Positions 27,801 through 50,070 of a DNA stretch of 64,000 nt are shown here, one piece after another. Positions within the stretch are counted from its first letter, which is position 1. Every line of letters starts with the position of its first letter. Origin of the DNA: Lachnospiraceae bacterium (GTDB lineage Bacteria > Bacillota > Clostridia > Lachnospirales > Lachnospiraceae); the NCBI GenBank assembly GCA_022766905.1, contig JALEPU010000057.1:719-64718 (forward strand), written 5' to 3'. The position numbers were made by a program, and so were the translations under genes. The notes beneath the pieces were generated by a model. That model was not told the DNA's origin. It was given only the letters and a program-made list of their open reading frames with translations, and did not search any database.

Positions 27801-28325
27801 AAGTTCCAGATAAAACGAATCTTCTCCAAATAAATCCCGATATTTTAAGGCAGTCTTTTTGGCTTCTTCATATTGTCCCTTTCGAATCAGGGAAGGAATT
27901 TCTCCTGCCAGACAGGCAGAAAGGGCAATGATCCCTTCATGGAACTGCTCCAGTACTTCATAATCCACCCTTGGCTTATAGTAAAACCCTTCTGTAAACC
28001 CTCTGGATACAATCTTCATCAGATTATGGTATCCAAGATCATTTTTCGCCAGAAGTACCATGTGGTAATACCGATCTTCACCTTTTACACTTTCCCTGTC
28101 AAATCGGGACCCGGGAGCCACATAAATCTCACATCCGATGATCGGCTTAATCCCGGCTTCTTTGGCCGCACGATAAAAGTCAATGACTCCATACATGACT
28201 CCATGGTCCGTAATGGCAATGCTGTCCATACCCAGCTCTTTGACCCGGGCTACCAATTCTTTGATTTTACTGGAACCATCCAGCAGACTATATTCTGTAT
28301 GCACATGTAAATGGGTAAAACTCAT
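24846..28325 (-). CDS. dnaE: DNA polymerase III alpha subunit, DnaE type
   Basis: N-terminal PHP domain (FTHLHVHTEYSLLDG), polymerase core (PDIDIDF), and HhH and OB domains. 1159 aa. Confidence 0.95.
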   Translation of the reverse strand: MSFTHLHVHTEYSLLDGSSKIKELVARVKELGMDSIAITDHGVMYGVIDFYRAAKEAGIKPIIGCEIYVAPGSRFDRESVKGEDRYYHMVLLAKNDLGYHNLMKIVSRGFTEGFYYKPRVDYEVLEQFHEGIIALSACLAGEIPSLIRKGQYEEAKKTALKYRDLFGEDSFYLELQDHGLSEQRDVNNSLLRMSKETGIPLVVTNDIHYIYDTDAEAHDILLCIQTGKKLADENRMRYEGGQYFCKSEEEMKRLFPYAREAIENTHKIADMCNVEIVFGEQKVPKFDVPGGGDAFLYLKQLCEEGIVKRYENPGKELYDRLYYELNTIKNMGYVDYFLIVWDFIHYARQHGIAVGPGRGSAAGSLVSYCLTITNIDPIRYNLLFERFLNPERVSMPDIDIDFCFERRQEVIDYVVEKYGKEKVVQIITFGTMAAKAVLRDVGRVMDIPYAQVDAVAKMVPNDLHITLDKALSMNPDLRKVYETDDQMHHMIDMAKRLEGLPRHSSMHAAGVVIGQEAIDEYVPLSRGSDDAITTQFTMTTIEELGLLKMDFLGLRTLTVIQDAVHLIEKDTGKVIEIEKIDYNDKNVYEMLSQAKTEGVFQLESAGMKSFMRELQPESLEDVIAGISLYRPGPMDFIPKYIKGKNDKASIRYDCPELEKILAPTYGCIVYQEQVMQIVMELAGYTLGRSDLVRRAMSKKKADVMLKERQNFVYGNEEEGIDGCIKRGIPEHVANHIYDEMIDFAKYAFNKSHAAAYAVVAYQTAYLKYYYPVEYMAALLTSVLNNPHKIIEYIYTCRQMGIEILPPSVNEGESGFSVSGGKIRYGLSAIKSLGKPVIESIVTERRAHGPYKSLMDLAERLTSKEMNKRTLENLIKSGALDEFGYTRKQQMQAYAGILNEANRQRKEAMTGQMSLMDFLEEEEKKEFEVKYPDVGEYSKEELLAFEKEVLGVYISGHPLEDYIGLIEKNTTASSLDFLIDEETQRAKVRDGLTYTIGGMVAGKTVKLTKNNQNMAFLSLEDLFGTVEVIIFPRDYTRYREYLEEDQKLLIRGRASVSEEEGKLICEQVIPFDQVPKELWIQFSSIEEYQIQSGVLVEILEQNSGTTPVVIYCRREKARKRLDKMHHIQLNNSLIFSLYDKFDEANVKVVEKPIEKRGKRD

Positions 28326-28350
28326 CTTTCTTTTCCTCGCCTTGCGCCTT

Positions 28351-28393
28351 CAAATAAAAGAAAAGAACCGTCTTTCCGATTCCTGACGGTTCT
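28351..28393 (-). terminator. Rho-independent terminator between the small membrane-protein gene and dnaE
   Basis: Perfect 9-bp stem AGAACCGTC (28364-28372) / GACGGTTCT (28385-28393). On the minus strand it is followed by UUUCUUUUAUUU. Confidence 0.65.
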
Positions 28394-28407
28394 CTTGTCT
28401 TCATGCT

Positions 28408-28656
28408 CTACTCTTCTGTTACAGTTGGTATGATAAAACCATAAGAATCCTGAGTAATCAGACTCGAAAAATCAACCTCCGGCCTCTTTGCCACCTGATA
28501 ACTATAATATCCCCAGTATCCGAATCCGCCAATCACGACAATTCCTACCAGAACTCCTATTACTTTCCGAACCTTACGCATCTTTTTCTCTCTTGCGTTG
28601 ATTTTCTTACGGTTTGCTTTATATTTTTTATATTCATCTACTTTTCTCTGACTCAT
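28408..28656 (-). CDS. Small basic single-TM protein (hypothetical)
   Basis: Start set to the ATG at 28656, which has a GGAG 9 nt upstream. Lys/Arg-rich N-terminus followed by one TM helix (VIGVLVGIVVIGGFGYWGYY). Confidence 0.5.
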   Translation of the reverse strand: MSQRKVDEYKKYKANRKKINAREKKMRKVRKVIGVLVGIVVIGGFGYWGYYSYQVAKRPEVDFSSLITQDSYGFIIPTVTEE

Positions 28657-28864
28657 CTTCTTACTCTCCATCTATCTTATGATCATGCAAAATATCATGT
28701 TATTTTCTTACATAGCAACAGCCATAATATCGCTGTTGCTATTTATTATATCGCATTTAAAATGGTAAGACAAGACACTTTTCACTGAAAAATTTGCAAA
28801 AATCTGAACAATTTATGAAGCATGGATTTTGCCACTTCTATTTTTTTATTTATCTGCTTTTTTC

Positions 28865-30466
28865 TTATCCTCTCAGTATCTCTTCCAGCGCAAGATAAGC
28901 ATCTTCATCTTTCTTTTGTTCTTCCAACGGAAGTTCATCAAAAGGTACCAGCAGAGGATGCTTTCTTTTTTTCTTATCCCGAACCGGTGCATACTCCCAG
29001 TTGTTCATAAAATGATATCGATTCCACCTGATATGTTCAATCTGCCAAAGTTTTTTCTTTTCCTCTTCATTCAACTGATGATATGCCTTCACTGCCTCAT
29101 CTCCGATTCCCGGTTCATCCATCCTTCGATCTGCCCCCAGAAGCAACCTGATTTTTTCCGGAATATGATCTGCCTGAGCAACATTGGAATATCTTAAAAA
29201 GGTGGTCAGTTTACTCCAGTCTTCAAGGAGATTCGGACAGGAAACACATTGATTCAGAGAACACAAATTTCCATTTTGTTTATTTTGGCATGGTTTTCCA
29301 TCTACTGTACCGTCACAACAATATTGTGCAAAATATCTGCTGTGAATCAGTTTTGCATGGTAAAACAGCTTTTCTTTCAGAATTGTCTCAGGATCGTATA
29401 ATTCTTTATTTACGCCAAAAGGAACAATGTTTTCTTTTTCCAGATTCCATAATGCAGACAACATTTTCTCATCGGAAAATTTCATATAACAGGCAGTATC
29501 CGCATAATAGGTTTTTAATTCATTTAACAGTTCAATGTTTTTTGCATCCATATCTTCAATCAGAATAACCCGGTCAAAAAAGTGATTTCTTTCCAGAATT
29601 TCATACCACTCCATGTCATAAAAATACACCGTATCATGATTGTCACAAATAGAATCATAAGGTTTCGCATCCCGTTCTTCTCCTTTTTCATTGATAATCT
29701 TAACATGAACGGTTTTGCTCAAATGATAATGTTTGGACAAATAGGCATGATAATCGCCTGCGATATGATATTCGATCTGAGAATCCGTAGAAATCACATT
29801 TTTCAAAATAGCCTGAGTTAACAGTCTTTGTCCGTAATTGTCAAAACCCAGCAAAAGTATTTTTTCTTTTTTATTCGTAACAGGATATTTATTCCAATAA
29901 TCTCTGGCACAATTCTCAGCTATATTACAAACAACCAGCTGTCTGTTTTCATAACTTCCCCGCAGTATTTTTTCCGAACACAAAAATACTTCTTTTTCAC
30001 TGCCATAAAACATTTTTGTTCCATGTTCATCCATAAAATGATACATATCAAAATCGTCTTCAAACATAAGAATATGCCTTGGAGCCCGAAAAGCAATTGA
30101 TTTATCCGAACAGATTGCTTTATTTCCCAGACTCTCCATGACAAGATCCTTATTTGCACTATCTCCGTGAATGGCAATCACATTATTCGTCCTGATTTTC
30201 ACCCAGATTCTGATATAATCTACCATAGAATAAAGAGCAGCTGCAATTGCAGCTGCTGTAGCAACAGGAGCCATAAACCTTGCAAACTCCGTAGCCGGAT
30301 TTAATACTTTGGCTTCTACACTAAATTCCATCACATATAATTGTGCTGTCTTATAAATGCAGTCCCAAAAAGTTCCCTCGTTTAAATTTATGATTCCATA
30401 TAATCCTACAATTCCAGGGACAAAAAACAGAAGTTTCCAGATCCTTTCCCACTTCTTTTTTTTCAT
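28865..30466 (-). CDS. Membrane protein: N-terminal 2-TM channel-like segment, two Rossmann-like modules, Cys-rich insert and tandem C-terminal RyR domains
   Basis: Start set to the ATG at 30466 (GGAGAGGA RBS; 533 aa). The C-terminus HIRWNRYHFMNNWEYAPVRDKKKRKHPLLVPFDELPLEEQKKDED matches the RyR-domain signature. An earlier half-repeat reads LIHSRYFAQ...WSKL..FLRYSNVAQADHIPEKIRLLG. Confidence 0.7.
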   Translation of the reverse strand: MKKKKWERIWKLLFFVPGIVGLYGIINLNEGTFWDCIYKTAQLYVMEFSVEAKVLNPATEFARFMAPVATAAAIAAALYSMVDYIRIWVKIRTNNVIAIHGDSANKDLVMESLGNKAICSDKSIAFRAPRHILMFEDDFDMYHFMDEHGTKMFYGSEKEVFLCSEKILRGSYENRQLVVCNIAENCARDYWNKYPVTNKKEKILLLGFDNYGQRLLTQAILKNVISTDSQIEYHIAGDYHAYLSKHYHLSKTVHVKIINEKGEERDAKPYDSICDNHDTVYFYDMEWYEILERNHFFDRVILIEDMDAKNIELLNELKTYYADTACYMKFSDEKMLSALWNLEKENIVPFGVNKELYDPETILKEKLFYHAKLIHSRYFAQYCCDGTVDGKPCQNKQNGNLCSLNQCVSCPNLLEDWSKLTTFLRYSNVAQADHIPEKIRLLLGADRRMDEPGIGDEAVKAYHQLNEEEKKKLWQIEHIRWNRYHFMNNWEYAPVRDKKKRKHPLLVPFDELPLEEQKKDEDAYLALEEILRG

Positions 30467-30482
30467 CAATTCCTCTCCTCCA

Positions 30483-31055
30483 TCAGAACGTGTCCAGATC
30501 ATCCTCATAATCATGGGTTGCAACATATTTGACATACTCAATTGCTTCCCTGACAGGCGGCAGACAAAGTACAACAAAAGAAATCAGCGCTTCTGCACCA
30601 ATATAACCGCCACAGTAAATCAAACCATATCTAATGTTTGCTGCCATAGTCTGATCAACCATGTAATAGAACCAGACACAGTTCCATACACTTTCTATGT
30701 ACCGGAAAAGAACAGCAAAGAGATAACCTTTCTGAAGGCCTTTTTTCTGATGAGAGAAAAATCCTCCCAGCCCAAGAACCCCGTATCCCAGAAGATAATC
30801 CCATACTTCCGGTACATTGATAATACCTGGATAATCCAGAACATATTTGATTGCTCCGAAACAAAAACAGGTAAACAACCCGGTTGGCCCGCCGTAAAAA
30901 TATCCTGCCAGGCAGAGAATCATCATGCTAAGACAGGTGACTTCTCCTCCTTCTTTCAACTGAAGAGGCTGCATATAAGAAAGCAGCAGGCTCAGTGCAA
31001 GAAGGGTGATAATCCAAAACCATTTTCGATTCCACAGATATCCTTCTTTTATCAT
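30483..31055 (-). CDS. ThiT/YuaJ-like polytopic membrane protein (ECF S-component-like)
   Basis: Start set to the ATG at 31055, which forms an ATGA overlap with the upstream stop. GGEVTCLSMMILCLAGYFYGGPTGLF...LDYPGI...LGYGVLGLGGFF follows the ThiT (Thia_YuaJ) pattern. About 190 aa with 6 predicted TM helices. Confidence 0.55.
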   Translation of the reverse strand: MIKEGYLWNRKWFWIITLLALSLLLSYMQPLQLKEGGEVTCLSMMILCLAGYFYGGPTGLFTCFCFGAIKYVLDYPGIINVPEVWDYLLGYGVLGLGGFFSHQKKGLQKGYLFAVLFRYIESVWNCVWFYYMVDQTMAANIRYGLIYCGGYIGAEALISFVVLCLPPVREAIEYVKYVATHDYEDDLDTF

Positions 31056-32947
31056 TTTTCCACCGATCCTTTTTCTCTTAATTTCTGTTTTCTTATATGG
31101 CGGTTTTTCTTGCTCAGAATGTACCACACGAGCAGAATCAATCCGCCTCCGCCCAGCACGACAACATCAAAGGTATTAGATGCCGATTCCACCGGAATTC
31201 CGCAGCTTTCATAAAACCTGCTTAAAAGACCTACCATATATTCCTGGACCTGCAAAATTGCCAGAATTGTTGCTGCTATATTAATAACCGCTCCGTTTCT
31301 ACGTTCATCTCTGGCATTTTTGATATCTACTATATGTTCCAGAAATTCCTGTTGCTCATAGTAATCCCGCCGCAATTCATCGTTTCCAAAGGCCTGTTTG
31401 ATCTGATCCGCTTCTCTTTGCGTTCCGTAATATTTAAAATTATTGCTTTGCCAGAACTTAATGGTTTTTGCATAATCTCTGTAAATCTGTCCGATATATT
31501 CATAGGAAACATCGCCTTCATGGGCAAGGGCATTGGATACTTTTATGGTCACTTTATTTAAAGCAGTATTTTGGAAAATCACCATTTCCACAATAAAAAT
31601 ATAGGTTGCGGTAAGTTCTATTCTCTCTTTTAATTCTTCCGGCTGAAACTCCTTCAAAATAAATGCAACCACCGCTTCCGTCATATAGACTTCATAATAG
31701 TCGTATACAGCCCGGTTTTTCTCCGCCTGCTCTTTCAATTCTTCATACTGAATATGAAAATCCTGATGCATACTGTTATAAGCTTCTGCCGTTAAAATAT
31801 TATAAAATTCCCGTTCTATTTCCGGTTTATTGGACATACAGATAATACTTTTTCCGGTTCCACAGGGAAGAAGACCAAACTCTTCTTTTAAGTACTGATT
31901 CAGTTCCTGATACTGATAAAAGCCCTTTTCATCCATGTCATTTTTATGACGGATTTTCAGGTAGCCATGACTTAACTGGTCCTCCACCTGAGAAGTGGAA
32001 TATCTGCAATCCGGAATAAAAAGCATAACTACATACATATGAGAAGAATGATGAGCAAGCAGGGAAAGGTACACCTTTTCTTCCCCCTGAATGTATGGTC
32101 TTGCGTTCTCATCTTCCTCGTCTTCATAGGTATCCAGGGTGTGAAGAAACATAAATTCTCCCAGATAAACTCTTTTTAATTCATTCACTACCGTATTCTG
32201 ACATTCATAATTCAGGCAGTCATCCAAAGCATTTAACAGGTAGCCTGCCACTTCCGGAGTTTTTGCATTTTTTATGCTGTATTCTTCTCCAAACAGTTTT
32301 TCTACTTTTGTATTTTTTTTATTGTCTGCATAGGGAAGAAAAAGATATACATCATCTTTGTAGGTCTTGAAATAAAGATCTTTCTTCAACAGCTTTTTCA
32401 GATAGATTCCGTCGCAAAGATAGACTTTATTTTCATCATGAATCTCCCGGTAAATGCGAAACATTCTGCTCCTCAAAAATTTCTGCCCATCTTCGGAAAC
32501 AGCAGTTGCAGAAATAGCATGAATCGGGTAACCTTCCTCTTCCAGCTCGTTGAGATAATCTACAAAACCGTCTGTTAATGTCATCACCACATTTTTATCA
32601 GACCGGTATTCTGGTGAAACGGCAATAGAAATAATAAACAAATTATTATCTTCCTCTTTGGAATAATCTGCCATTTCATCCGGTCTGATATCATCATCCC
32701 GTATTTCCATGCCCGTCTCTACAATTTCATCCCAAAGCTTTGGTTTTACCGGGAAAAAATTGATATAACCTGCAACTTTGTCTCCATCCATTACACAGAC
32801 AAAAGTTCTGGGATTTTCTTTGTATCTGTCTTCCATGTTCACCAGTTCTCCCACATACTGGTCCGGATAGCATTTTGCATCAATTTCCATAATTTTTGGC
32901 AAAAATGCAAGTCCCATCTCTTCGCCTTTTAAAATACTATACTTCAT
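31052..32947 (-). CDS. GNAT-family N-acetyltransferase fused to a large helical domain and a C-terminal 2-TM hairpin
   Basis: Start set to the ATG at 32947 (AGGAG RBS, 23 nt after the potD stop). The first roughly 190 aa look like a GNAT fold (VAGYINFFP..., FIISIAVSPEYR). The last 80 aa contain two TM helices (AVINIAATILAILQV / VVVLGGGGLILLVWYIL). Confidence 0.6.
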   Translation of the reverse strand: MKYSILKGEEMGLAFLPKIMEIDAKCYPDQYVGELVNMEDRYKENPRTFVCVMDGDKVAGYINFFPVKPKLWDEIVETGMEIRDDDIRPDEMADYSKEEDNNLFIISIAVSPEYRSDKNVVMTLTDGFVDYLNELEEEGYPIHAISATAVSEDGQKFLRSRMFRIYREIHDENKVYLCDGIYLKKLLKKDLYFKTYKDDVYLFLPYADNKKNTKVEKLFGEEYSIKNAKTPEVAGYLLNALDDCLNYECQNTVVNELKRVYLGEFMFLHTLDTYEDEEDENARPYIQGEEKVYLSLLAHHSSHMYVVMLFIPDCRYSTSQVEDQLSHGYLKIRHKNDMDEKGFYQYQELNQYLKEEFGLLPCGTGKSIICMSNKPEIEREFYNILTAEAYNSMHQDFHIQYEELKEQAEKNRAVYDYYEVYMTEAVVAFILKEFQPEELKERIELTATYIFIVEMVIFQNTALNKVTIKVSNALAHEGDVSYEYIGQIYRDYAKTIKFWQSNNFKYYGTQREADQIKQAFGNDELRRDYYEQQEFLEHIVDIKNARDERRNGAVINIAATILAILQVQEYMVGLLSRFYESCGIPVESASNTFDVVVLGGGGLILLVWYILSKKNRHIRKQKLREKGSVEK

Positions 32948-32970
32948 TGCATGCTCCTGACCTTGACCCT

Positions 32971-34032
32971 TTAGTCTGCTTTCAGCTCTTTCCACAATTC
33001 ATTCATAAAATCTGTCGTTTTTTCATCAGTCATGAGAGATACTTCGCAGTCCTTTGTGGCATCGTCAGATGGAACCAAAGCCTCATCTGCCCGATCTTCC
33101 TCTGACAGACTTTCAATCACTGCTTCATTTGGTGTAGAATAGTAAATATATTCAAAATTCTTCTGGGCAATATCTTCTCTGCACAGGAAATCTAAAAACT
33201 TCTGTGCAGCATCCATATTGTCACAGTATTTTGTAACACACCAGGAATCCAGCCATACATTGGAACCTTCCTTTGGAATCACATAAGCCAGATTTTCATT
33301 GTACTGATGTCCCAGATAAGCCTCTCCGGAATATACAACAGCCATAGTTGCATTCCCTGCAACAACTTCATCTCTGGCTTCGTCTACCAGATAAGCCTGT
33401 ACATCCGGTTTCTGTTTTAAAAGCAGTTCCTGAGCCTCTTTCAGTTCTTTTTCATCGCTGCTGTTCAAAGAATATCCAAGGGCTTTCAACGCCAGCATGA
33501 ACATATCACGCATACTGTTCTGCATGACGATTTCACCGGAATATTCTCCATTAAATAATACATTCCAGCTGTCTACCGGCTCTTTTACCTTGGTCGTATC
33601 ATAAAGGATACCTAAAGTTCCCCAAAAATACGGAACCGTATAGTTGTTATCCGGGTCAAATGCTTTTGAAAATTCCCAGTATTTATCTCCAATATTCTCT
33701 TTGTTTTCCAGGGCATCTATATCAATTTCCTGTAACTCTCCTTCACTAATCAGTTTTTGAAGCATATAATCCGTAGAGCAAAGCAAATCATATTCGATTG
33801 CACCGGATTTATATTTGGTATACATCTCTTCCGGAGTCAAAGCCTCTTCATATTTCACTTCAATTCCTGTCTCTTCCGTAAACTGATCCAAAACATCCGG
33901 ATCCATATATTCTCCGTAATTAAAAACTGTCAGAGTATCTGTCACTTCTGTCTTTTTGCTTCCGCATCCGGTCAGAACCCCGGAACATGCCATTACTGCA
34001 GCCATTACAAAACATACGATTCTTTTTTTCAT
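32971..34032 (-). CDS. potD: Spermidine/putrescine ABC transporter substrate-binding lipoprotein
   Basis: Lipobox LTGCGS, a PotD-like SBP_bac_8 sequence, and its position after potABC. Confidence 0.85.
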   Translation of the reverse strand: MKKRIVCFVMAAVMACSGVLTGCGSKKTEVTDTLTVFNYGEYMDPDVLDQFTEETGIEVKYEEALTPEEMYTKYKSGAIEYDLLCSTDYMLQKLISEGELQEIDIDALENKENIGDKYWEFSKAFDPDNNYTVPYFWGTLGILYDTTKVKEPVDSWNVLFNGEYSGEIVMQNSMRDMFMLALKALGYSLNSSDEKELKEAQELLLKQKPDVQAYLVDEARDEVVAGNATMAVVYSGEAYLGHQYNENLAYVIPKEGSNVWLDSWCVTKYCDNMDAAQKFLDFLCREDIAQKNFEYIYYSTPNEAVIESLSEEDRADEALVPSDDATKDCEVSLMTDEKTTDFMNELWKELKAD

Positions 34033-34076
34033 TTCTCGTCCTCTCTCTTTCTTTCTAACTAATATCCTGCATAATA

Positions 34077-34874
34077 TTATCCGATGTAGGATTTCTCTTC
34101 CTTTTTTCTGGATGGAAAATAATTTACCACCAGCAAAATCATAAATACAAATACAAAAATAATCGTAGACAGAGCATACATCTCCGGTTTGATTCCTTTT
34201 CGTATTTCTCCGTATATCATGGTGGAGAGAGTATTAACTCCTGCTCCTTTTGTAAAATAGGTTATTACAAAATCATCCATAGACATGGTAAATGCCATGA
34301 AAAAACCGGAAAGAATTCCACCTGTAAGCTGAGGCAGAATAATCTTAAAAAACGCATAGACTGCATTCGCCCCCAAGTCTCTTGCTGCTTCATAAATACT
34401 CAGGTTCATCTGCTTGATCTTTGGCATCACGCTTAGAATGACATAAGGAATATTAAATGTAATATGAGCAAGTAAGACACTTCCAAATCCCAGGGGAATA
34501 AAATGAACAAACCAGAGCATCAGAGCAATACCGGTTACAATGTCCGCATTTAACATCGGGATATTGGTAAGTATCATCATAATCTTATAATTTCTTTGTC
34601 GCATCGCATGGATACCTAATGCTCCAAGCACTCCTACCACAGTTGCAATCAGCGCTGACATAAGAGCCAGAATCAAAGTCGTTGCCAAAGCTTCCTTAAT
34701 CTGCCGGTTGGAAAACAGTCTCTGATACCAGTTTAAAGTAAATCCTCCCCAGGTTACCCGGGATCTGGAATCATTGAAAGAAAGTACAATCAGCACCAGA
34801 ATAGGAGCATACAAAAATATCATAATGATGCCGATATAAAACCGACTCACCCAGTCTTTTATCTTTTCTACCAT
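34077..34874 (-). CDS. potC: Spermidine/putrescine ABC transporter permease
   Basis: 265 aa, 6 TM helices, EAA loop (YEAARDLGA). Confidence 0.85.
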   Translation of the reverse strand: MVEKIKDWVSRFYIGIIMIFLYAPILVLIVLSFNDSRSRVTWGGFTLNWYQRLFSNRQIKEALATTLILALMSALIATVVGVLGALGIHAMRQRNYKIMMILTNIPMLNADIVTGIALMLWFVHFIPLGFGSVLLAHITFNIPYVILSVMPKIKQMNLSIYEAARDLGANAVYAFFKIILPQLTGGILSGFFMAFTMSMDDFVITYFTKGAGVNTLSTMIYGEIRKGIKPEMYALSTIIFVFVFMILLVVNYFPSRKKEEKSYIG

Positions 34875-35704
34875 ATTGCCGAGCCCTTTCCTTCTACTTC
34901 ATTTTTCGTGGTAAATGCCATACTGATTAATACAAAGATCATCAGGGAGACAGATAGTCCGGATCCCAGATTCCAGTTGACACTCTTGGTAAATTCCTGT
35001 TCGATAATATTTCCGATTAACTGAAGCTTGCCGCCTCCTAAAATATCTGATATTACAAATGACGTCATGGAAGGCACAAAAACCATCACAATTCCACTTA
35101 ACAACCCGGGAACGGATAAAGGAAAAATGATTTTCCGAAAAATCGTAAGACTTCCGGCGCCTAAATCTTTTGCAGCTTCAATGATATCTTCATCAATTTC
35201 CGATATGGCATTAAAAATCGGAAGTACCATAAAAGGAAGGTAGTCATAAACAACACCGATCATAATCGCCGTTCCCGTATTGGCAATGGCTAACGGCTCG
35301 ATTCCAACCTTCTGAAGGAGAAAATTCAAAATTCCATTAGAAGATAAAATCATCTGCCAGGCCAGAATCCTTAAAATAAAATTCATCCACATAGGAAGGA
35401 TCAGTACAAAAATCATAAAGCCCTGTTTTCCCATATTCAGCCTTCTCAGTGCCATCACGAGAGGATAGGACAAGAGAATACATACAAAAGTACATCCCAA
35501 CGCAATCTCCAGAGAAAAGATCATCGCTTTCATATGAATCGGGTCTGCAATAGCCAGAATATTATCCAGCGTAAATCCTCCGTCCCGCCCTGTTAATGCA
35601 TAGCGGAAAATCACGATCATCGGAATCAGGGTAAATCCAATGACCCAGAGCACATAGGGAGAAGACAGCCAGCTTCTCGGATTGACCGATTTTAATTTAT
35701 TCAT
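34868..35704 (-). CDS. potB: Spermidine/putrescine ABC transporter permease
   Basis: 278 aa, 6 TM helices, EAA loop (IEAAKDLGAG). Overlaps both potA and potC. Confidence 0.85.
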   Translation of the reverse strand: MNKLKSVNPRSWLSSPYVLWVIGFTLIPMIVIFRYALTGRDGGFTLDNILAIADPIHMKAMIFSLEIALGCTFVCILLSYPLVMALRRLNMGKQGFMIFVLILPMWMNFILRILAWQMILSSNGILNFLLQKVGIEPLAIANTGTAIMIGVVYDYLPFMVLPIFNAISEIDEDIIEAAKDLGAGSLTIFRKIIFPLSVPGLLSGIVMVFVPSMTSFVISDILGGGKLQLIGNIIEQEFTKSVNWNLGSGLSVSLMIFVLISMAFTTKNEVEGKGSAIW

Positions 35705-36770
35705 CTTCTTTTATAACCTCCGCATCCTTAGAATGAGGTTTATGCATAATCTGAATATTGTCAGGCAGAATCGTAAGTCCTACCATATCTCCGATTGGAG
35801 CCGGATTGACACTTTGAACGGACCAGTCATAATCCCCTACCTGAACTTTGATCTCATAGTATGCGCCTTTAAATATAATGGAAATAACCCTTCCCGAAAG
35901 GAATCCTTCGTTCTCTCCTACAATCACCAGATCCTCCGGCCGGATTACCACATCTACCGGTTCATCTTTTCCAAATCCGGTATCCACACATAAGATTGGT
36001 ACATTCTGAATCTCAACCAGACAATCTTCTCTCATAATTCCATCAATAATATTACTGTCTCCGATGAAATCGGCTACAAAAGCATTCTGTGGCTCATCAT
36101 AAATACTCTTTGATGTACCCATCTGCTGAATGATTCCTTTGTTCATGACAATAATCCGGTCCGACATGGTAAGGGCCTCTTCCTGATCATGGGTAACATA
36201 GACAAAGGTAATACCAACTTCTTTTTTTATCTTAATCAGCTCCCGCTGCATCCCATGACGAAGTTTTAAATCCAGCGCACCAAGAGGTTCATCCAAAAGA
36301 AGAATCTCCGGTTCATTTACAATGGCTCTTGCTATGGCAACCCTCTGCTGCTGACCACCGCTTAATGAAGTCGGTTTTCTCTTTCCATACCCATCCATAT
36401 TAACCAGTTTCAGTGCGTATGCTACTTTATCTTTGATGTATTGGGCACTTTTCTTTTTCAGTTTCAAACCAAACGCAATGTTTTCCTCCACATTCATGTG
36501 GGGGAATAAAGAATATTTCTGAAATACCGTGTTTACATTACGTTTGTCCGGAGATAATCCGGTAATATCCTTTCCTTCAAATAATACTCTTCCTTCGTCC
36601 GGCTTTTCAAATCCTCCGATAATCCGAAGAGTTGTTGACTTCCCACAGCCGGAAGGGCCTAAAAGGGTAATAAATTCATTCCTTTTAATCTCAAGATTCA
36701 TATTATTCAATATTTTCTTGCCATCAAAAGACTTACTTATAGAGTCTAATTCTAAAATAACGTCTTTCAT
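35697..36770 (-). CDS. potA: Spermidine/putrescine ABC transporter ATP-binding protein
   Basis: Start set to the ATG at 36770 (GGAGGA RBS). Walker A GPSGCGKST, signature LSGGQQQR, Walker B LLLDEPLGALD, plus a TOBE-like C-terminus. Confidence 0.9.
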   Translation of the reverse strand: MKDVILELDSISKSFDGKKILNNMNLEIKRNEFITLLGPSGCGKSTTLRIIGGFEKPDEGRVLFEGKDITGLSPDKRNVNTVFQKYSLFPHMNVEENIAFGLKLKKKSAQYIKDKVAYALKLVNMDGYGKRKPTSLSGGQQQRVAIARAIVNEPEILLLDEPLGALDLKLRHGMQRELIKIKKEVGITFVYVTHDQEEALTMSDRIIVMNKGIIQQMGTSKSIYDEPQNAFVADFIGDSNIIDGIMREDCLVEIQNVPILCVDTGFGKDEPVDVVIRPEDLVIVGENEGFLSGRVISIIFKGAYYEIKVQVGDYDWSVQSVNPAPIGDMVGLTILPDNIQIMHKPHSKDAEVIKEDE

Positions 36771-36781
36771 TCCTGTCCTCC

Positions 36782-37330
36782 TTAAAAGCTTGGCGGAGTG
36801 CTGATCCAAAGAATCGAAGCAACTTTTTTGCAAGCTGAAGTTATCCGATGTTTTTTATTTGCAGGGAAAATAAAAGAATCCCCTTTTTTCACTTTATAAA
36901 CAGATTCGCCATATTGAAGCATAATAGTTCCATCCAATACGTACCCAAACTCTTCCCCCTCATGGGGCTTATCAAAGGGCATGGTCTGTCCCGGCTGCAA
37001 TTTCACCAGAATCGGTTCTAAGCTTCTGCTCTGAGCAGAGGCAATCAGCCAGGTCGTGCTGTTTTGATTGTCGTCCGTCTTTTCAAAATAATCTTCTTTG
37101 TGATACACGATCTGCAAATCATTATCTTCATGAAAAAAGTCGGATAAATTTGTTCCGAGACACTCGACAATATCCGACAGCGTTGACACAGAAGGTGCCG
37201 TAAGTCCTCGTTCTAACTGGGAAATAAATCCCTTCGTAAGCTCGGTTCTGTCTGCAAGTTCTTCCTGTGTCAGTCCATTCTGGTTTCGCAGATTCCTGAT
37301 TTTTTCTCCTATCTGCTCCTCTATATTCAT
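36782..37330 (-). CDS. XRE-family HTH + cupin transcriptional regulator (PuuR-like) heading the pot operon
   Basis: N-terminal HTH_3 (IRNLRNQNGLTQEELADRTELTKGFISQLERG) and a C-terminal cupin_2 domain. 182 aa. Confidence 0.8.
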   Translation of the reverse strand: MNIEEQIGEKIRNLRNQNGLTQEELADRTELTKGFISQLERGLTAPSVSTLSDIVECLGTNLSDFFHEDNDLQIVYHKEDYFEKTDDNQNSTTWLIASAQSRSLEPILVKLQPGQTMPFDKPHEGEEFGYVLDGTIMLQYGESVYKVKKGDSFIFPANKKHRITSACKKVASILWISTPPSF

Positions 37331-37377
37331 CTTTAACCATCCTTACTTTTACTAAACATTTTGTTTCATCCTTCTTA

Positions 37378-37405
37378 ATTATACATATACTAAATCTAAA
37401 GTCAA
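37378..37405 (-). promoter_or_regulatory. Sigma-A promoter of the regulator/pot operon
   Basis: The minus strand reads TTGACT (37405-37400), a 16-nt spacer ending in TG, then TATAAT (37383-37378). This lies about 48 nt upstream of the ATG. Confidence 0.55.
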
Positions 37406-37526
37406 CTATTATTTCTTTTTTCCTGCTTTCCATACAAAAAAGAACCTTCTAAGACAAAAAACATTCATAATCTAAGACCATAATTTCCCCTTTTTCGCAA
37501 TTTACTGCAAAGAAAAATCCATTTTA

Positions 37527-37555
37527 TATACAATCCTGTCAATCTATGTTATACT
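37527..37555 (+). promoter_or_regulatory. Extended -10 promoter for prsW
   Basis: TATACA (37527-37532), a 17-nt spacer containing TGT, then TATACT (37550-37555). It lies upstream of the AGGAGG RBS and the ATG at 37588. Confidence 0.4.
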
Positions 37556-37587
37556 TTATCAAAACAAATGATGATAGGAGGATTTTT

Positions 37588-38319
37588 ATGGCTACTTTGA
37601 TCTTTATGTATGCAGCTCTGATTCCACCCCTTTTTTTAATGTGGATGGTATACCGCCAGGATAAAGTGGAGAGAGAACCTGTCGGTCTGGTTTTACAGGT
37701 TTTTCTGCTGGGATGTATCATTCCCGTTCCTGTTATTTTCGTGGAATCGCTGTTTGAAAGTATTCTCAGCATCTTCGGAAACGGATTTCTCTATCAGCTT
37801 TTAGAGAACTTTATCGGAGTTGCCCTTGTAGAAGAATTTTTTAAATACCTGATTCTTCGGATCCGCATCTGGAATCACAAGGAGTTCAATTATCGTTTTG
37901 ATGCTATCGTATATGCAGTTGCAGCTTCCCTTGGATTTGCTGCTGTTGAAAACATTGCCTATGTTTTCAATTTTGGTATTCAGGTTGCTTTTTCCAGAGC
38001 TCTTCTTGCTATCCCCGGTCATACCATATTTGCTATTTTCATGGGGTTATATCTGGGTAAAGCAAAATACTGTGTTTATATAAGCAAAAAAGAAGAATTG
38101 GATCCGAGAACCAGGAACAATGTACTCGCAAGATCCCGCCATTACCGCCGTCTTGCTTTGCTGGTTCCCGTCCTTCTCCATGGATTTTATGATTTTGTCC
38201 TTTCGATCGACGGTATTCTTCCAGCCCTCTTATTTTTGGCTTTCGTTATTATCATGGATATTATCTCAATCCGGACGGTATCCCAGACCGGACTTCATGA
38301 TACCTCTGTTCAGGATTAA
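37588..38319 (+). CDS. prsW: PrsW-family intramembrane glutamic/metallo-protease
   Basis: Start set to the ATG at 37588 (AGGAGG 8 nt upstream). Has the EExxK motif (ALVEEFFKYL) and the HxxxD motif (LHGFYDF). Polytopic membrane protein. Confidence 0.75.
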   Translation: MATLIFMYAALIPPLFLMWMVYRQDKVEREPVGLVLQVFLLGCIIPVPVIFVESLFESILSIFGNGFLYQLLENFIGVALVEEFFKYLILRIRIWNHKEFNYRFDAIVYAVAASLGFAAVENIAYVFNFGIQVAFSRALLAIPGHTIFAIFMGLYLGKAKYCVYISKKEELDPRTRNNVLARSRHYRRLALLVPVLLHGFYDFVLSIDGILPALLFLAFVIIMDIISIRTVSQTGLHDTSVQD

Positions 38320-38408
38320 GGGATTCTTTCCACAGACAGAACCTACCCACCGCTTCATGCTCTGCGCATCTGAAGTGGGAGACTTACTTCATTCGGTTAA
38401 AAAGAAAA

Positions 38409-47241: not shown

Positions 47242-48948
47242 TCACCTTCCTTTTCTTCTGCTCAGACTGCTGTACGCAATTTCAACCTTTCGCTTTGCAT
47301 TGATTAAATTATTTTTTAAGTGATTTATCTTTTTATTGATGGCATCATTTTTGTCATCACTGAGCTTCTCAATTCTGTTTTCGATCTTATTGATTTCTTC
47401 ATAAATTTTTTCCTGTGTTACTCCATTTGCTAAAAAATTTTCTGCATGATTACTTATTTGTACTGCAATCTCATTATAAAGAGTAAGTGCTGTTGTTTTA
47501 TTTCCCACATCGATAAATTCATTTTGATTCAATTTTGATAAATCCTCAAAAAACCGATTATATCCTGCAATAGTATTTTCACCGCTCAAGTCTTCTTTTC
47601 CCAGTGCCTCATAGTATGATCCAATCCTGCTGTATATTTCAGCTCTTTTTTTCTGTAAAGAATCAATACTTTTTACTCTTGTATTTATGACAGGATAAAA
47701 CCAGTTCTTCGCTGTATATTTTCCTTGCGTTCCCTTATACTTAAAAAAATAATTAATTCCCATCTGAAAACAAAATGGAATATATTCTTCCTTGTTCTTT
47801 TTCAGATAATCAATATTTCTTGCAGAGCCATTTATGGCATAAAGTGCAGAGGAAACTTTCCGTTCATCTTCTATGGAAAATTCTTCATCTTTTAGATAAT
47901 CTCCAAGCATTGCAAAATATGCTTTGCTGCTTCCGGGATTTAGTCTGATTGCTTCTTTATAATATTTTTGCTTTTCATCAGACAACGAAGATTGCGCTGC
48001 TCGTTCCAGATAAACCTCATAATTTTTTGATTTTATGTGATATATTTTCGTACTGCAAAAAAGAGCTCCCAGACCAAACAAAAGGGTAAATCCTGCGCAT
48101 AGGGAAAACTGTATCATTTTCTTTTTTTGTGATCTATGAAATGATTCATCCAGTTCTTTGTAATGCTCCAGTGCTTCTAACAAGTCAATGCAATTCTGAT
48201 ACCGGTCTTTCGGATTTAATTGAGTACATTTTAATAAAATCTTCTCAAAGCCAGTCGATAAATTTTCATCCCAATAACGAATTGGATACATTTCATAAGG
48301 CGGTGCCGCCGGATTATGCCCTGTTACCAGATGATATAATGTTGTGCCAAGACAATAGATATCTGTTCTTGCATCTGTCTGTCCATGACCTCCGAATTGT
48401 TCCGGTGCCGCATATCCTCTTGTCCCCAGACATGTGGTATCTTCTACATGACTGTTTTTAAATTCTCTTGCCGTGCCAAAATCAATGAGCGTTACATTAC
48501 CATCCGGTTTCAGCATGATATTTGCTGGTTTCATATCTCTGTAAATAATAGGAGGAACCTGAGCATGAAGATATTTTAAAACCTGACAAAGCTGTTTTCC
48601 CCATTCAATGACATTTTCCTGAGGCTGTGCTCCATGTTCTTTCAGTAATTTACTTAATGGTTCTCCTTCTATAAAATCCATAACAATCAGGAGTGAATCT
48701 TTCTCATCTATGACATCGACAATGTCCGGAAGGTTGGGATGACTTAATTTTTTTAATATATTGGTTTCAGCAATCAATCCCTGCCTTACAATTTCAAAAT
48801 CCTGGATTCCATCTTTACGAAGTTCTTTGATTGCCCACTGCTTATTGGCTCTTTCATTTAAAGCAAGATAGACAACGCTCATTCCACCTTGGCCGATTTT
48901 GTTTAAAATTTTATATGTTCCATTTATCGTGGAACCAATTTCCAGCAT
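47242..48948 (-). CDS. Hanks-type Ser/Thr protein kinase with one TM helix and an extracytoplasmic helical (TPR-like) domain; no PASTA repeats
   Basis: GQGGMSVVY, AIKEL, YRDMKPANIML, DFGTA and GYAAPEQ motifs. TM helix at about aa 289-311. The C-terminal 255 aa are helical-repeat-like. Confidence 0.9.
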   Translation of the reverse strand: MLEIGSTINGTYKILNKIGQGGMSVVYLALNERANKQWAIKELRKDGIQDFEIVRQGLIAETNILKKLSHPNLPDIVDVIDEKDSLLIVMDFIEGEPLSKLLKEHGAQPQENVIEWGKQLCQVLKYLHAQVPPIIYRDMKPANIMLKPDGNVTLIDFGTAREFKNSHVEDTTCLGTRGYAAPEQFGGHGQTDARTDIYCLGTTLYHLVTGHNPAAPPYEMYPIRYWDENLSTGFEKILLKCTQLNPKDRYQNCIDLLEALEHYKELDESFHRSQKKKMIQFSLCAGFTLLFGLGALFCSTKIYHIKSKNYEVYLERAAQSSLSDEKQKYYKEAIRLNPGSSKAYFAMLGDYLKDEEFSIEDERKVSSALYAINGSARNIDYLKKNKEEYIPFCFQMGINYFFKYKGTQGKYTAKNWFYPVINTRVKSIDSLQKKRAEIYSRIGSYYEALGKEDLSGENTIAGYNRFFEDLSKLNQNEFIDVGNKTTALTLYNEIAVQISNHAENFLANGVTQEKIYEEINKIENRIEKLSDDKNDAINKKINHLKNNLINAKRKVEIAYSSLSRRKGR

Positions 48949-48964
48949 ATTTCTCCTCCATTTC

Positions 48965-49732: not shown

Positions 49733-49848
49733 AAAGACCTTATTCTCCTTATTTTATTTATTTTTCCTGTGGTACATTGCAATGTGATATGAGTTCAATC
49801 GAATGTTAGAATTCTGTAGATCATAGATATTGAACTGAGATTGAATTT

Positions 49849-49877
49849 ATTATAACTCACTTCATTTCTTATTTCAA
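49849..49877 (-). promoter_or_regulatory. Near-consensus sigma-A promoter of the phosphatase/kinase/giant-protein operon
   Basis: The minus strand reads TTGAAA (49877-49872), a 17-nt spacer, then TATAAT (49854-49849). The resulting leader is about 110 nt. Confidence 0.55.
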
Positions 49878-50038: not shown

Positions 50039-50070
50039 TTCTACATTTCACATGTTAAAGATTATATGAA

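What the first reader, a model, noticed from the sequence alone, without database searches (positions are those of the whole stretch)
28865..32947. Three uncharacterised membrane proteins joined directly to the 3' end of the polyamine (potABCD) operon
**Seen in the sequence**
- The potD stop (32971) is followed 23 nt later by an AGGAG RBS and an ATG at 32947.
- That gene's TGA overlaps the next ATG as ATGA (31052-31055).
- The third gene starts 16 nt after the second gene's stop, with a GGAGAGGA RBS.
- I see no hairpin with a U-run anywhere between 37330 and 28865. All eight genes (PuuR-like regulator, potA, potB, potC, potD and the three unknowns) therefore look like one transcription unit.

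**The three unknowns**
- A GNAT acetyltransferase fused to a roughly 360-aa helical domain and a C-terminal 2-TM hairpin.
- A ThiT/YuaJ-like 6-TM protein with no ECF A/T genes nearby.
- A 2-TM plus double-Rossmann protein ending in tandem RyR domains.

I know of no described system that combines these parts.

**Inference only**
- GNATs are the enzymes that acetylate polyamines (SpeG, PaiA).
- A membrane-tethered GNAT, a small-molecule-binding S-component-like protein and a channel-like RyR protein behind a polyamine importer suggest a polyamine modification, sensing or export module.
Basis: partly seen in the sequence, partly recalled or inferred. Interest (0 to 1): 0.78.

Follow-up and report, generated by a model that had tools for sequence, protein, structure and literature searches.

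The report
Polyamine importer operon's conserved membrane add-on
Two of the three unknown genes behind this gut bacterium's polyamine importer form a conserved, undescribed acetyltransferase-plus-membrane-binding-protein pair that probably handles polyamines, whereas the third gene is an unrelated passenger from a family usually found beside TIR immune genes.

Summary
The gene layout is as described: a 23-nt gap, an ATGA overlap and a 16-nt gap, each with a ribosome-binding site, and no convincing terminator between the puuR-like promoter and gene 3.

The three genes are not one system.

**Genes 1 and 2 are a real pair.**
- Gene 1 is a GNAT, then an unknown 360-aa domain, then a 2-TM hairpin. 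Gene 2 is a ThiT-family 6-TM protein.
- They are adjacent in 55 of 56 species-level loci and fused into one protein in three.
- In 26 of 61 loci they follow puuR-potABCD in this exact order, across at least five deep clades.
- No literature on the pair was found.
- My best guess, which is inferred, is a membrane complex that acetylates a polyamine-type amine and moves it or its product across the membrane.

**Gene 3 is independent.**
- It has 2 TM helices, Rossmann-like domains and one RyR domain.
- None of 84 other loci with a relative carries pot, gene 1 or gene 2.
- 33 of 70 such loci have a TIR gene within 3 kb.
- Its RyR domain keeps the H-W-H-D cADPR-binding residues of phage RyDEP.
- It is probably an orphan Thoeris-like sensor or effector.

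The parts
37378..37405 (-). Sigma-70-like promoter (TTGACT-16-TATAAT) upstream of the puuR-like gene. It is the likely start of the transcription unit.
   Evidence: 11 of 12 matches, the best site in the scanned region. This is a consensus match only and has not been mapped experimentally.
36782..37330 (-). PuuR-like regulator (HTH_3 plus cupin).
   Evidence: Cupin_2 and HTH_3 matches; best NCBIfam hit is PuuR at 95 bits, below the equivalog cut-off of 211. It heads the operon in 17 or more related loci.
35697..36770 (-). potA, the polyamine ABC transporter ATPase.
   Evidence: TIGR01187 potA at 364.6 bits, above the cut-off of 355.6. The start at 36770 follows the gene call on the identical contig L062.
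34868..35704 (-). potB permease.
   Evidence: best hit is PotB at 207 bits.
34077..34874 (-). potC permease.
   Evidence: best hits are PotC-type permeases at 222-225 bits.
32971..34032 (-). potD, the lipoprotein-type spermidine/putrescine binding protein.
   Evidence: PotD is the best hit at 215.6 bits; 4eqb at E=5e-75 and E. coli PotD 1pot at E=2e-54.
31052..32947 (-). Gene 1 (631 aa): N-terminal GNAT, then the unknown 'domain X', then a C-terminal 2-TM hairpin.
   Evidence: The family has 130 clusters, none carrying a functional name: those with a source name are called 'hypothetical protein' and most have no name. The AF2 model has pLDDT 85.9.
32381..32947 (-). GNAT-fold domain, residues 1-189. 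Family-invariant residues include G60, Y61, N63, F64, the acidic D84-D85(-D86) motif, S107, G154 and R167.
   Evidence: Foldseek hits to Ard1, Naa10, Naa50, RimI and the CurA GNAT at E about 1e-5; alignment A6.
31289..32380 (-). Domain X, residues 190-553: a cytoplasmic alpha/beta domain plus long helices, with no known family.
   Evidence: no Pfam match; no PDB sequence match at E<=10; 378 clusters at 50% identity, many of them standalone proteins; some relatives carry GGACT in place of GNAT.
31115..31288 (-). Two-TM hairpin, residues about 554-575 and 593-611, followed by a basic cytoplasmic tail.
   Evidence: for hydropathy. for the helices. One search shows that the fusions continue into the ThiT-like domain after this tail.
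30483..31055 (-). Gene 2 (190 aa): a divergent ThiT-family 6-TM protein with the ECF S-component fold. It has an EGGxVT loop motif and invariant E155 and P166.
28865..30466 (-). Gene 3 (533 aa): 2 TM helices with an intervening short helix, a tandem Rossmann (RCK-like) region, a Cys cluster and one RyR (R12-like) domain. It is not part of the pot/gene 1/gene 2 module.
28901..29044 (-). Pfam RyR match, residues 475-522. It holds invariant H478 and W481, with H503 and D520 nearby. These have the same spacing as the cADPR-binding H75, W78, H100 and D117 of phage RyDEP.
   Evidence: PMC13232231, sections 4-5.
28712..28741 (-). Strong hairpin with a stem of about 11 bp (9 bp exactly complementary in the sequence) and no U-run. 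It lies in the spacer after gene 3, just downstream of a promoter-like site at 28773-28745.
   Evidence: Its role is unknown.
28408..28671 (-). Conserved small single-TM ORF (87 aa) between gene 3 and dnaE.
   Evidence: 58% identity to the equivalent ORF in L063; one TM helix.
28363..28384 (-). First convincing intrinsic-terminator-like site downstream of the operon: a G+C-rich stem followed by TTCTTTTATT.

Best explanation
**The operon.** The window carries a puuR-like/potABCD polyamine-uptake operon. Its 3' end is extended by a conserved two-gene membrane module.

**The module.**
- Gene 1 is a cytoplasmic GNAT-fold acyltransferase. A previously undescribed domain of about 360 aa (domain X) and a 2-TM hairpin hold it at the membrane.
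- Gene 2 is a divergent ThiT-family 6-TM small-molecule-binding protein.
- The two products work as one physical complex. This is shown by near-obligate adjacency and by natural fusions.

**Most likely function (inferred, not shown).**
- The complex couples N-acylation of a polyamine-type amine to its passage through the membrane protein.
- One version is a safety valve: it acetylates excess imported spermidine or putrescine and releases the product.
- The other version is uptake with metabolic trapping.
- Either way it is co-expressed with the PotABCD importer under the PuuR-like regulator.

**Gene 3.**
- Gene 3 is probably co-transcribed here but is functionally unrelated.
- It is an orphan member of a family of membrane proteins with RCK-like and RyR domains. 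That family is usually encoded next to TIR-domain genes.
- It most likely senses an ADPR-type nucleotide signal.
For: **Shown**
- The junction geometry is as described and there is no intergenic terminator.
- Gene 2 follows gene 1 in 55 of 56 loci. In L012, L018 and L019, and in about 15 protein clusters of 880-908 aa carrying PF09515, they are fused.
- GNAT and domain X also occur as two separate ORFs in L049, L052, L053 and L055.
- The order puuR-potABCD-gene 1-gene 2 is found in 26 of 61 species-level loci. These fall in at least five deep clades of the gene 1 tree, with identity down to 37%.
- The same order is found in the most abundant human-gut variant.
- Non-pot loci share no other functional neighbour.
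- Topology fits a complex: the GNAT is cytoplasmic, the hairpin ends in a basic tail, and the fusions then enter TM1 of the S-component fold from the cytoplasm.
- Gene 2 is a distinct subfamily, set apart from the lower-scoring ThiT-family hits, some of them annotated ThiT, by a score gap from 169 to 139 bits. It lacks most thiamine-binding residues but keeps the acidic residue at the position of ThiT E84.

**Supporting inference**
- The family has an invariant acidic DDD motif in the GNAT, and invariant acidic and aromatic residues in gene 2. Both suit a cationic ligand.
- In some relatives the enzyme domain on X is GGACT, another enzyme family acting on amine conjugates.
- The precedent of B. 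subtilis blt-bltD (a spermidine exporter next to a polyamine acetyltransferase) and of E. coli SpeG comes from my own knowledge.

**Gene 3**.
Against: - There is no biochemical evidence.
- The GNAT profile shows no significant similarity to SpeG, PaiA, SSAT or BltD-type enzymes. The best PDB hit is a diamine acetyltransferase at E=0.22.
- The canonical R/Q-x-x-G-x-G/A CoA loop is degenerate, and the usual catalytic Tyr position appears to be Phe. Activity and substrate are therefore open.
- More than half of the loci (Coriobacteriia, Treponema, some Lachnospiraceae) have the pair without pot genes nearby.
- Gene 2 could be an ordinary ECF S-component using a module encoded elsewhere.
- The fold of domain X could not be searched on its own.
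- Distant domain X relatives with a GGACT domain sit in mobile or defence-like contexts, one of them next to a TIR gene.
Confidence: 0.45

Rival explanations
1. All three genes form one polyamine modification, sensing or export module, with the RyR protein acting as its channel.
For: - All three genes are tightly spaced on one strand with ribosome-binding sites and no terminator between them.
- The same arrangement is present on an independently assembled, near-identical contig, L062.
Against: - Gene 3 is absent from all 61 gene 1 loci and from the abundant Roseburia-like operon.
- None of 84 independent gene 3-family loci has pot, gene 1 or gene 2.
- Gene 3 travels with the small ORF and dnaE in another genome that lacks pot upstream.
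- Its family partners with TIR genes.
Confidence: 0.04
2. Gene 2 is a genuine group II ECF S-component. It is energised by an EcfAA'T module encoded elsewhere and imports a micronutrient or amine other than thiamine. Gene 1 modifies or traps that compound on entry. The link to pot is shared regulation or related substrates.
For: - PF09515 scores above its cut-off.
- The family profile aligns over the full length of the ThiT structures 4tkr and 3rlb.
- The small-xxx-small motif in TM1 at the position of ThiT AxxxA is kept as (A/S)xxxS, with S26 nearly invariant.
- From established knowledge, group II S-components normally lack adjacent ecf genes.
Against: - No ecf genes lie in the 64-kb window, and their presence elsewhere in the genome cannot be checked.
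- Covalent fusion of an S-component to a 2-TM anchor carrying about 550 cytoplasmic residues is unusual for a protein that must topple on EcfT.
- Gene 2 scores far below the ThiT equivalog cut-off (45 against 108 bits).
Confidence: 0.25
3. Genes 1 and 2 form a sensor or regulator rather than a metabolic device. The ThiT-like protein senses extracellular or membrane polyamine. The tethered GNAT then acetylates a protein target, for example a Pot subunit, to tune uptake.
For: - The best structural matches of the GNAT domain include protein N-terminal acetyltransferases: Ard1, Naa10, Naa50 and RimI.
- Domain X looks like a signalling or scaffold domain that is re-used with other enzyme heads.
- The pair is placed inside the importer operon.
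Against: - Foldseek E-values do not separate protein-acetylating GNATs from small-molecule GNATs.
- The pair occurs without neighbouring pot genes in many taxa.
- No target is indicated.
Confidence: 0.12
4. Genes 1 and 2, and also gene 3, are accessory conflict or defence cargo inserted between potD and dnaE. The association with pot would then be positional, not functional.
For: - The distribution is patchy: 61 of 185,579 species representatives by pattern scan, which is a lower bound.
- Distant GGACT-X relatives sit in mobile or defence-like contexts, one of them next to a TIR gene.
- Gene 3 belongs to a TIR-associated family.
Against: - The same order and short potD-gene 1 gaps recur in at least five deep clades, which chance insertion does not explain.
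- There are no TIR-like ORFs in 1.07 Mb of gene 1 loci.
- There are no PADLOC hits.
- The GC content of genes 1 and 2 is typical for the window.
Confidence: 0.06

Closest known systems
ThiT / YuaJ, the thiamine-specific S-component of ECF transporters (PF09515; PDB 3rlb, 4tkr)
   Same: - Gene 2 has the same 6-TM fold family. PF09515 scores 49 bits, and the family profile hits 4tkr at E=1.7e-5.
- It keeps an acidic residue at the position of ThiT E84.
- It keeps a small-xxx-small motif in TM1.
   Different: - It scores far below the ThiT equivalog cut-off.
- Trp34, His125, Trp133, Tyr146 and Asn151 of ThiT are not conserved.
- It has its own EGGxVT, E155 and P166 signature.
- It is always paired with, or fused to, the GNAT-X protein.
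- No ECF module lies in the window.
Polyamine acetyltransferase plus exporter arrangements: B. subtilis blt-bltD, E. coli SpeG, B. subtilis PaiA. This comparison comes from my own knowledge and was not retrieved here.
   Same: A GNAT enzyme is genetically coupled to a membrane transport protein in a polyamine-homeostasis context.
   Different: - No detectable sequence relationship exists to those GNATs.
- The membrane partner has an S-component fold, not an MFS or SMR exporter fold.
- The enzyme is itself membrane-anchored through an unknown domain, and sometimes fused to the partner.
- The pair is embedded in the importer operon.
Pnu-type transporters with cytoplasmic trapping kinases, such as PnuC with NadR. 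This comparison comes from my own knowledge.
   Same: The concept is the same: a small passive membrane carrier is coupled to a cytoplasmic enzyme that modifies the substrate.
   Different: The folds and the chemistry differ. The coupling here would be by acylation, and it is physical (tether or fusion).
Phage RyDEP and the RyR Repeat12 domain family (PF02026; PMC13232231)
   Same: The C-terminal domain of gene 3 matches PF02026. It keeps the four ligand-contacting residues (H, W, H, D) with identical spacing of 3, 25 and 42.
   Different: - Gene 3 is a cellular membrane protein with 2 TM helices and tandem Rossmann-like domains, not a small soluble phage protein.
- Whether it binds or cleaves a ligand is untested.
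Thoeris systems with membrane or channel effectors, such as type X (TIR plus an 'ion channel' effector, ThsK; bioRxiv 10.64898/2025.12.03.692087)
   Same: Gene 3 relatives are encoded next to TIR-domain genes in 33 of 70 loci. They combine a predicted nucleotide-binding domain with a membrane domain.
   Different: - The neighbouring TIR proteins sampled here are large: TIR with STAND NTPase and TPR, TIR with a beta-propeller, or TIR with Sel1.
- No ThsK sequence was available for comparison.
- There is no PADLOC hit.
- In this window there is no TIR gene at all.
RCK-gated K+ channels and TrkA/KtrA gating rings (MthK, GsuK, Kch)
   Same: - The topology is TM, short helix, TM, followed by two Rossmann-like domains.
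- There are weak Foldseek matches to 4j9v, 4gx0 and 5but.
   Different: - There is no TVGYG-type selectivity filter.
- There is no Ion_trans Pfam match, and TrkA_N is only weak in 5 of 28 members.
- hhalign against E. coli Kch gives a probability of 0.7%.

Membership tests
ECF S-component, ThiT family (PF09515 / TIGR02357) | Match to the Pfam family model above the gathering score | tested here: met
   49.4 bits against 25.8, covering profile positions 7-170 of 177.
ECF S-component, ThiT family (PF09515 / TIGR02357) | Equivalog-level match to ThiT, indicating the same function | tested here: not met
   45.3 bits against a cut-off of 108.45; a score gap from 169 to 139 bits separates the gene 2 subfamily from the lower-scoring ThiT-family hits, some of which sources annotate as ThiT.
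ECF S-component, ThiT family (PF09515 / TIGR02357) | Thiamine-binding residues of L. lactis ThiT: W34, E84, H125, W133, Y146, N151. The residue list is from my own knowledge, and the positions were checked against the 3rlb sequence in the alignment. | tested here: not met
   only the acidic residue at the E84 position (D/E-Y) is conserved. The alignment is distant, so single positions are approximate.
ECF S-component, ThiT family (PF09515 / TIGR02357) | Small-xxx-small (AxxxA) motif in TM1, used to dock on EcfT | tested here: inconclusive
   (A/S)xxxS lies at the aligned position and S26 is at least 90% conserved. The motif could equally pack against the gene 1 hairpin.
ECF S-component, ThiT family (PF09515 / TIGR02357) | An EcfA/A'/T energising module present in the genome | not testable with these tools
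   no second ABC_tran pair in the 64-kb window. The rest of the genome is not available.
GNAT acyltransferases (PF00583) | GNAT fold | tested here: met
   AF2 pLDDT above 90 over residues 1-190. Foldseek hits to many GNAT structures, E 4e-6 to 1e-4, target TM-score about 0.7; the Pfam match is only marginal, 21.3 against 20.7.
GNAT acyltransferases (PF00583) | Canonical acetyl-CoA pyrophosphate-binding loop R/Q-x-x-G-x-G/A | tested here: not met
   the equivalent segment reads Y-R-(S/G/D)-x-(K/E), with no conserved G-x-G. CoA binding is therefore unproven.
Polyamine N-acetyltransferases (SpeG, PaiA, SSAT, BltD) | Detectable sequence relationship to characterised members | tested here: not met
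   the GNAT-domain profile against all PDB sequences gives only 6yug (diamine acetyltransferase) at E=0.22, which is not significant.
PotABCD spermidine/putrescine ABC importer | Four subunits in potA-B-C-D order, each with a Pot protein as its best match | tested here: met
   PotA passes TIGR01187, and PotB, PotC and PotD are best hits but below the E. coli equivalog cut-offs. PotD structures 4eqb, 4gl0 and 1pot are the top hits.
RyR / Repeat12 nucleotide-binding domain (PF02026) | Pfam match above the gathering score | tested here: met
   32.1 against 27.4; 28 of 28 family members match at E<=1 (best 9.2e-10). Only one domain is found, not a tandem pair.
RyR / Repeat12 nucleotide-binding domain (PF02026) | Ligand-contacting residues H75, W78, H100 and D117 of RyDEP | tested here: met
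   H478, W481, H503 and D520 are invariant in 28 sequences, with the same spacing. The residues are defined in PMC13232231. Equivalence is inferred from motif and spacing, not from a structural superposition.
Thoeris-type TIR signalling system (effector or sensor component) | A TIR-domain gene adjacent to the candidate effector | tested here: not met
   In this window there is no TIR-like ORF in 64 kb. At family level the feature is met: 33 of 70 loci within 3 kb and 23 within 300 nt, against 0 in 1.07 Mb of control loci.
Thoeris-type TIR signalling system (effector or sensor component) | Match to a known defence-system model | tested here: not met
   no PADLOC-DB v2 hit for any of the three proteins.
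RCK-regulated K+ channels | Pore loop with a TVGYG-type filter and an Ion_trans or TrkA_N profile match | tested here: not met
   the sequence between the two TM helices has no such filter; no Ion_trans match, and TrkA_N is weak in 5 of 28; hhalign against Kch gives 0.7%; only weak fold similarity to gating rings.
CorA-type 2-TM cation channels (considered for domain X) | Profile similarity and a GMN motif after TM1 | tested here: not met
   hhalign against E. coli CorA gives 0.2%; no PDB sequence hit at E<=10. There is no GMN motif. A fold-level comparison of residues 190-631 alone could not be run.

The most novel reading that the evidence does not exclude
The GNAT-X protein and its ThiT-like partner constitute a new kind of transport-coupled acylation machine. 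In this reading an ECF-type S-component fold is used without an ECF module. It is hard-wired by tether or fusion to an acyltransferase, so that a polyamine is acetylated as it crosses the membrane. This would be a polyamine safety valve or trap built into the importer operons of abundant gut Clostridia such as Roseburia-like species.
Probability: 0.2. Interest if true: 0.8.

Novelty: new variant of a known kind. Interest (0 to 1): 0.6.

Why it matters
**Polyamines and the gut.**
- Polyamines and their acetylated forms are major metabolites exchanged between gut microbes and the host.
- How Gram-positive gut anaerobes buffer or release them is poorly understood.
- A conserved, unannotated two-protein membrane device is wired into the potABCD operon of abundant Lachnospiraceae and Oscillospirales. 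That makes it a concrete, testable candidate for this role.

**Protein architecture.**
- The device would be the first S-component-fold protein shown to work as a fixed partner of an enzyme.
- It also defines a new domain family of about 360 aa, with 378 clusters at 50% identity. The domain carries interchangeable enzyme heads (GNAT, GGACT or none).

**Gene 3.**
- Gene 3 points to a family of bacterial membrane proteins with an RyR domain. They keep the cADPR-binding residues and sit next to TIR genes.
- This bears on the proposed evolutionary link between bacterial TIR signalling and cADPR regulation of animal ryanodine receptors.

Tried and rejected
1. **CorA-like identity for domain X.** This lead came from the alpha/beta domain, long helices and 2-TM layout. 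hhalign against E. coli CorA gave 0.2% probability. There was no PDB sequence hit and there is no GMN motif. I reject it at sequence level; the fold was not testable.
2. **Foldseek of the whole gene 1 model.** It returned only GNAT hits. The structure-prediction cap meant domain X could not be submitted alone.
3. **K+-channel identity for gene 3.** There is no selectivity filter and no Pfam match, and hhalign against Kch gave 0.7%.
4. **PADLOC defence models.** None matched any of the three proteins.
5. **Functional hints from neighbours in loci without pot genes.** I found only AraC, AAA_14/DUF4143, CBS, purA, guaB, PBP, GGDEF and T2SS genes, with no common theme.
6. **Contexts of standalone domain X proteins.** These were uninformative. 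A Mycoplasma crocodyli relative lies convergent to a pot-like ABC operon, but that is a single case.
7. **Metagenome scan with the gene 2 alignment.** It failed because no conserved stretch was long enough.
8. **Literature searches.** Searches for a GNAT/ThiT-like polyamine module and for TIR plus RyR membrane proteins found nothing specific.
9. **Base composition as a sign of horizontal transfer.** Gene 3 has the lowest GC of the local genes compared (0.364, about 1.7 sd below the window mean). This is not decisive.

Full report
**1. Observation**

All genes of interest lie on the minus strand. Reading the sequence confirms the junctions.
- The potD stop is at 32973-32971. AGGAG lies at 32958-32954 and the gene 1 ATG at 32947, giving a 23-nt gap.
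- The gene 1 TGA and the gene 2 ATG share ATGA at 31055-31052.
- The gene 2 TGA is at 30485-30483. GGAGAGGA follows, and the gene 3 ATG is at 30466, giving a 16-nt gap.

The upstream genes really are a polyamine importer.
- NCBIfam gives PotA, PotB, PotC, PotD and PuuR as best hits, and PotA passes the TIGR01187 cut-off.
- PotD matches the S. pneumoniae, Listeria and E. coli PotD structures at E=5e-75 to 2e-54.

Signals for transcription are as follows.
- The best promoter-like site of the region (TTGACT-16-TATAAT, 37405-37378) precedes the puuR-like gene.
- The consensus scan finds a few terminator-like hairpins on the minus strand. All lie inside coding sequence, and their number (13 against 8.7 +/- 3.7 expected) is not above chance.
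- The first convincing terminator lies at 28384-28363, after a small conserved ORF downstream of gene 3.
- Co-transcription of all eight genes, possibly nine, is therefore plausible but unproven.

Three details of the description need correction.
- The middle of gene 1 is alpha/beta plus helical, not purely helical.
- Gene 3 has one RyR domain, not two.
- The hairpin statement is slightly too absolute.

**2. Genes 1 and 2 are one unit**

Gene 1 has 130 relatives at 90% clustering; none carries a functional name, and the few that sources name are called 'hypothetical protein'. About 15 of them, at 880-908 aa, carry a C-terminal PF09515 domain. The alignment shows these are end-to-end fusions of gene 1 and gene 2.

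A pattern scan of one genome per species returned 61 loci. They come from Lachnospiraceae, Oscillospirales, Coriobacteriia and Treponema.
- Of the 56 loci with a full-length gene 1 and room downstream, 55 have gene 2 directly after it, and 3 of those are fused.
- The GNAT part and the rest can also be separate ORFs, as in L049, L052, L053 and L055.

Topology is consistent with a complex.
- The hairpin (about 554-575 and 593-611) returns the chain to the cytoplasm.
- A basic tail follows.
- In the fusions, TM1 of the S-component fold comes next.

**3. Link to potABCD**

In 26 of 61 loci the pair follows puuR-potA-potB-potC-potD in the same order. The potD-to-gene-1 gap is 1-154 nt, median about 23.
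- On a neighbour-joining tree of gene 1 proteins, the pot-linked loci fall in at least five deep clades. These include members only 37-39% identical to the window protein.
- The most abundant gene 2 cluster appears in 162 blocks of the collection, from metagenome assemblies. It shows the same seven-gene operon followed by lgt, with no gene 3.
- Loci without pot genes share no other functional neighbour.
- Pot is therefore the only recurrent partner.

**4. What the parts are**

*Gene 1, residues 1-189.* This is a confident GNAT fold.
- Its CoA loop is degenerate.
- It has an invariant acidic RDDD motif.
- It shows no significant similarity to any solved polyamine acetyltransferase.

*Gene 1, residues 190-553 (domain X).* This region has no Pfam or PDB sequence match.
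- A profile search of 1.84 billion representatives finds 378 clusters.
- Many of these are standalone proteins of 385-425 aa.
- Some carry a GGACT/AIG2 domain in place of GNAT.
- Domain X is thus a re-usable membrane scaffold for small enzymes.
- A CorA-like reading was tested and not supported.

*Gene 2.* This is a distinct subfamily of the ThiT family.
- PF09515 scores above its cut-off, but the ThiT equivalog score is far below cut-off.
- The family profile hits ThiT structures at E=1.7e-5.
- A score gap separates it from the lower-scoring ThiT-family hits, some annotated ThiT.
- Of the thiamine-contacting residues, only the acidic residue at the E84 position is kept.
- The family has its own EGGxVT, E155 and P166 signature.

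**5. Mechanism**

*Shown:* a conserved physical and genetic coupling of a GNAT-fold enzyme to a ThiT-fold membrane protein, preferentially inside polyamine-importer operons.

*Inferred:* the complex acylates a polyamine-type amine at the membrane and passes substrate or product through the ThiT-like protein. This could be a release valve for excess imported polyamine or uptake with trapping.
- From my own knowledge, the functional analogies are B. subtilis blt-bltD and E. coli SpeG.
- The GGACT-headed relatives fit a general theme of amine conjugates.
- I put about 0.35 on the acetylation-and-translocation step itself.
- I put about 0.85 on the claim that genes 1 and 2 form a complex functionally tied to Pot.

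*Main rival:* gene 2 is an ordinary group II ECF S-component, and gene 1 modifies its cargo.

**6. Gene 3 is a passenger**

Gene 3 does not travel with the pot module.
- It is absent from all 61 gene 1 loci.
- A relative 46% identical sits in the same downstream synteny (gene 3, small ORF, dnaE, pfk, trkH, trkA). Upstream of it lies a Tubulin_2/transglutaminase cluster instead of pot.
- The small ORFs in the two loci are 58% identical.
- A metagenome scan gave 80 more loci. None has pot, gene 1 or gene 2.

Its family partners with TIR genes instead.
- Four independent neighbour clusters are TIR-domain proteins: TIR with STAND and TPR, TIR alone, TIR/ThsB-like with a beta-propeller, and TIR with Sel1.
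- A TIR-like ORF lies within 3 kb in 33 of 70 loci with enough flank, and within 300 nt in 23.
- The control is 0 TIR-like ORFs in 1.07 Mb of gene 1 loci.

The domains point to nucleotide sensing at the membrane.
- The AF2 model (pLDDT 89.8) resembles RCK gating rings and RyR Repeat12 only weakly.
- The family-invariant H478, W481, H503 and D520 reproduce the spacing of the cADPR-contacting H75, W78, H100 and D117 of phage RyDEP (PMC13232231).
- Gene 3 is therefore best read as an orphan member of a TIR-associated, ADPR-type-ligand-sensing membrane protein family. There is no TIR gene in the window.
- Its relation to the 'ion channel' effector of type X Thoeris (bioRxiv 10.64898/2025.12.03.692087) could not be tested.

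**7. Verdict**

- The gene 1/gene 2 module is real, conserved, unannotated and not found in the searchable literature.
- It is a new variant built from known folds plus one unknown domain.
- Interest is moderate to high, and the biochemical function remains to be shown.

Noticed in passing
window 28865-30466; loci L066, L078-L080, L083-L089, L096-L098, L100, L102, L104, L107-L112, L117, L123-L125, L127, L132, L133, L141, L142, L144, L147, L152, L153: The gene 3 family (2 TM helices, Rossmann-like domains, one RyR domain) is encoded next to TIR-domain genes in about half of the loci with visible flanks. It keeps the four cADPR-contacting residues of phage RyDEP. It may be an undescribed or recently described Thoeris-type effector or sensor. 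The copy in this window has no TIR partner.
   Followed up: partly
L063 1-7983; L067 1-7893; L079 upstream of 7001; L066 808-2100: The closer gene 3 relatives (46-64% identity) follow a conserved cluster. It consists of a Tubulin_2 (PF13809) protein, two large unannotated proteins (about 665 aa and about 1300 aa) and a transglutaminase-core protein. The function of this cluster is unknown.
   Followed up: no
L073 3592-6328; L074 2411-4006; L075 1994-3589: Distant domain X relatives carry a GGACT/AIG2 domain instead of GNAT. They sit in mobile or defence-like contexts. One is followed by a 313-aa TIR protein, and others lie near a YagK/YfjJ-type gene.
   Followed up: partly
L069 7001-8746 (Mycoplasma crocodyli CP001991.1): A 581-aa domain X protein of a mycoplasma lies convergent to a potABCD-like ABC operon, separated only by rpsT. 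This hints at a second, independent association with polyamine transport, but it is a single case.
   Followed up: no
window 28712-28741 (minus strand): A strong hairpin with a stem of about 11 bp and no U-run lies right after a promoter-like site (28773-28745). It sits in the 193-nt spacer between gene 3 and the small ORF. It could be a 5'-UTR element or a processing or termination signal.
   Followed up: partly
window 28408-28671: A small single-TM ORF (87 aa, lysine-rich N-terminus) is conserved immediately upstream of dnaE in at least two divergent genomes, at 58% identity. It has no family assignment.
   Followed up: partly
window 30236-30257 (minus strand, inside gene 3): A perfect 9-bp-stem palindrome, AGCAGCTGCAATTGCAGCTGCT, encodes the Ala-rich stretch AAAIAAA of TM2. 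The scan flagged it as terminator-like. It is most likely a by-product of the coding sequence.
   Followed up: no
window, outside 28000-38400 (for example 42116-46996 and the block 47242-56347): - The rest of the window is a housekeeping chromosomal region.
- It includes a butyrate-pathway gene set: thiolase, crotonase, 3-hydroxybutyryl-CoA dehydrogenase, acyl-CoA dehydrogenase and EtfAB.
- It also includes a sugar ABC system and a 1626-aa ORF that was not examined.
- Exact gene-by-gene coordinates were not assigned.
   Followed up: no
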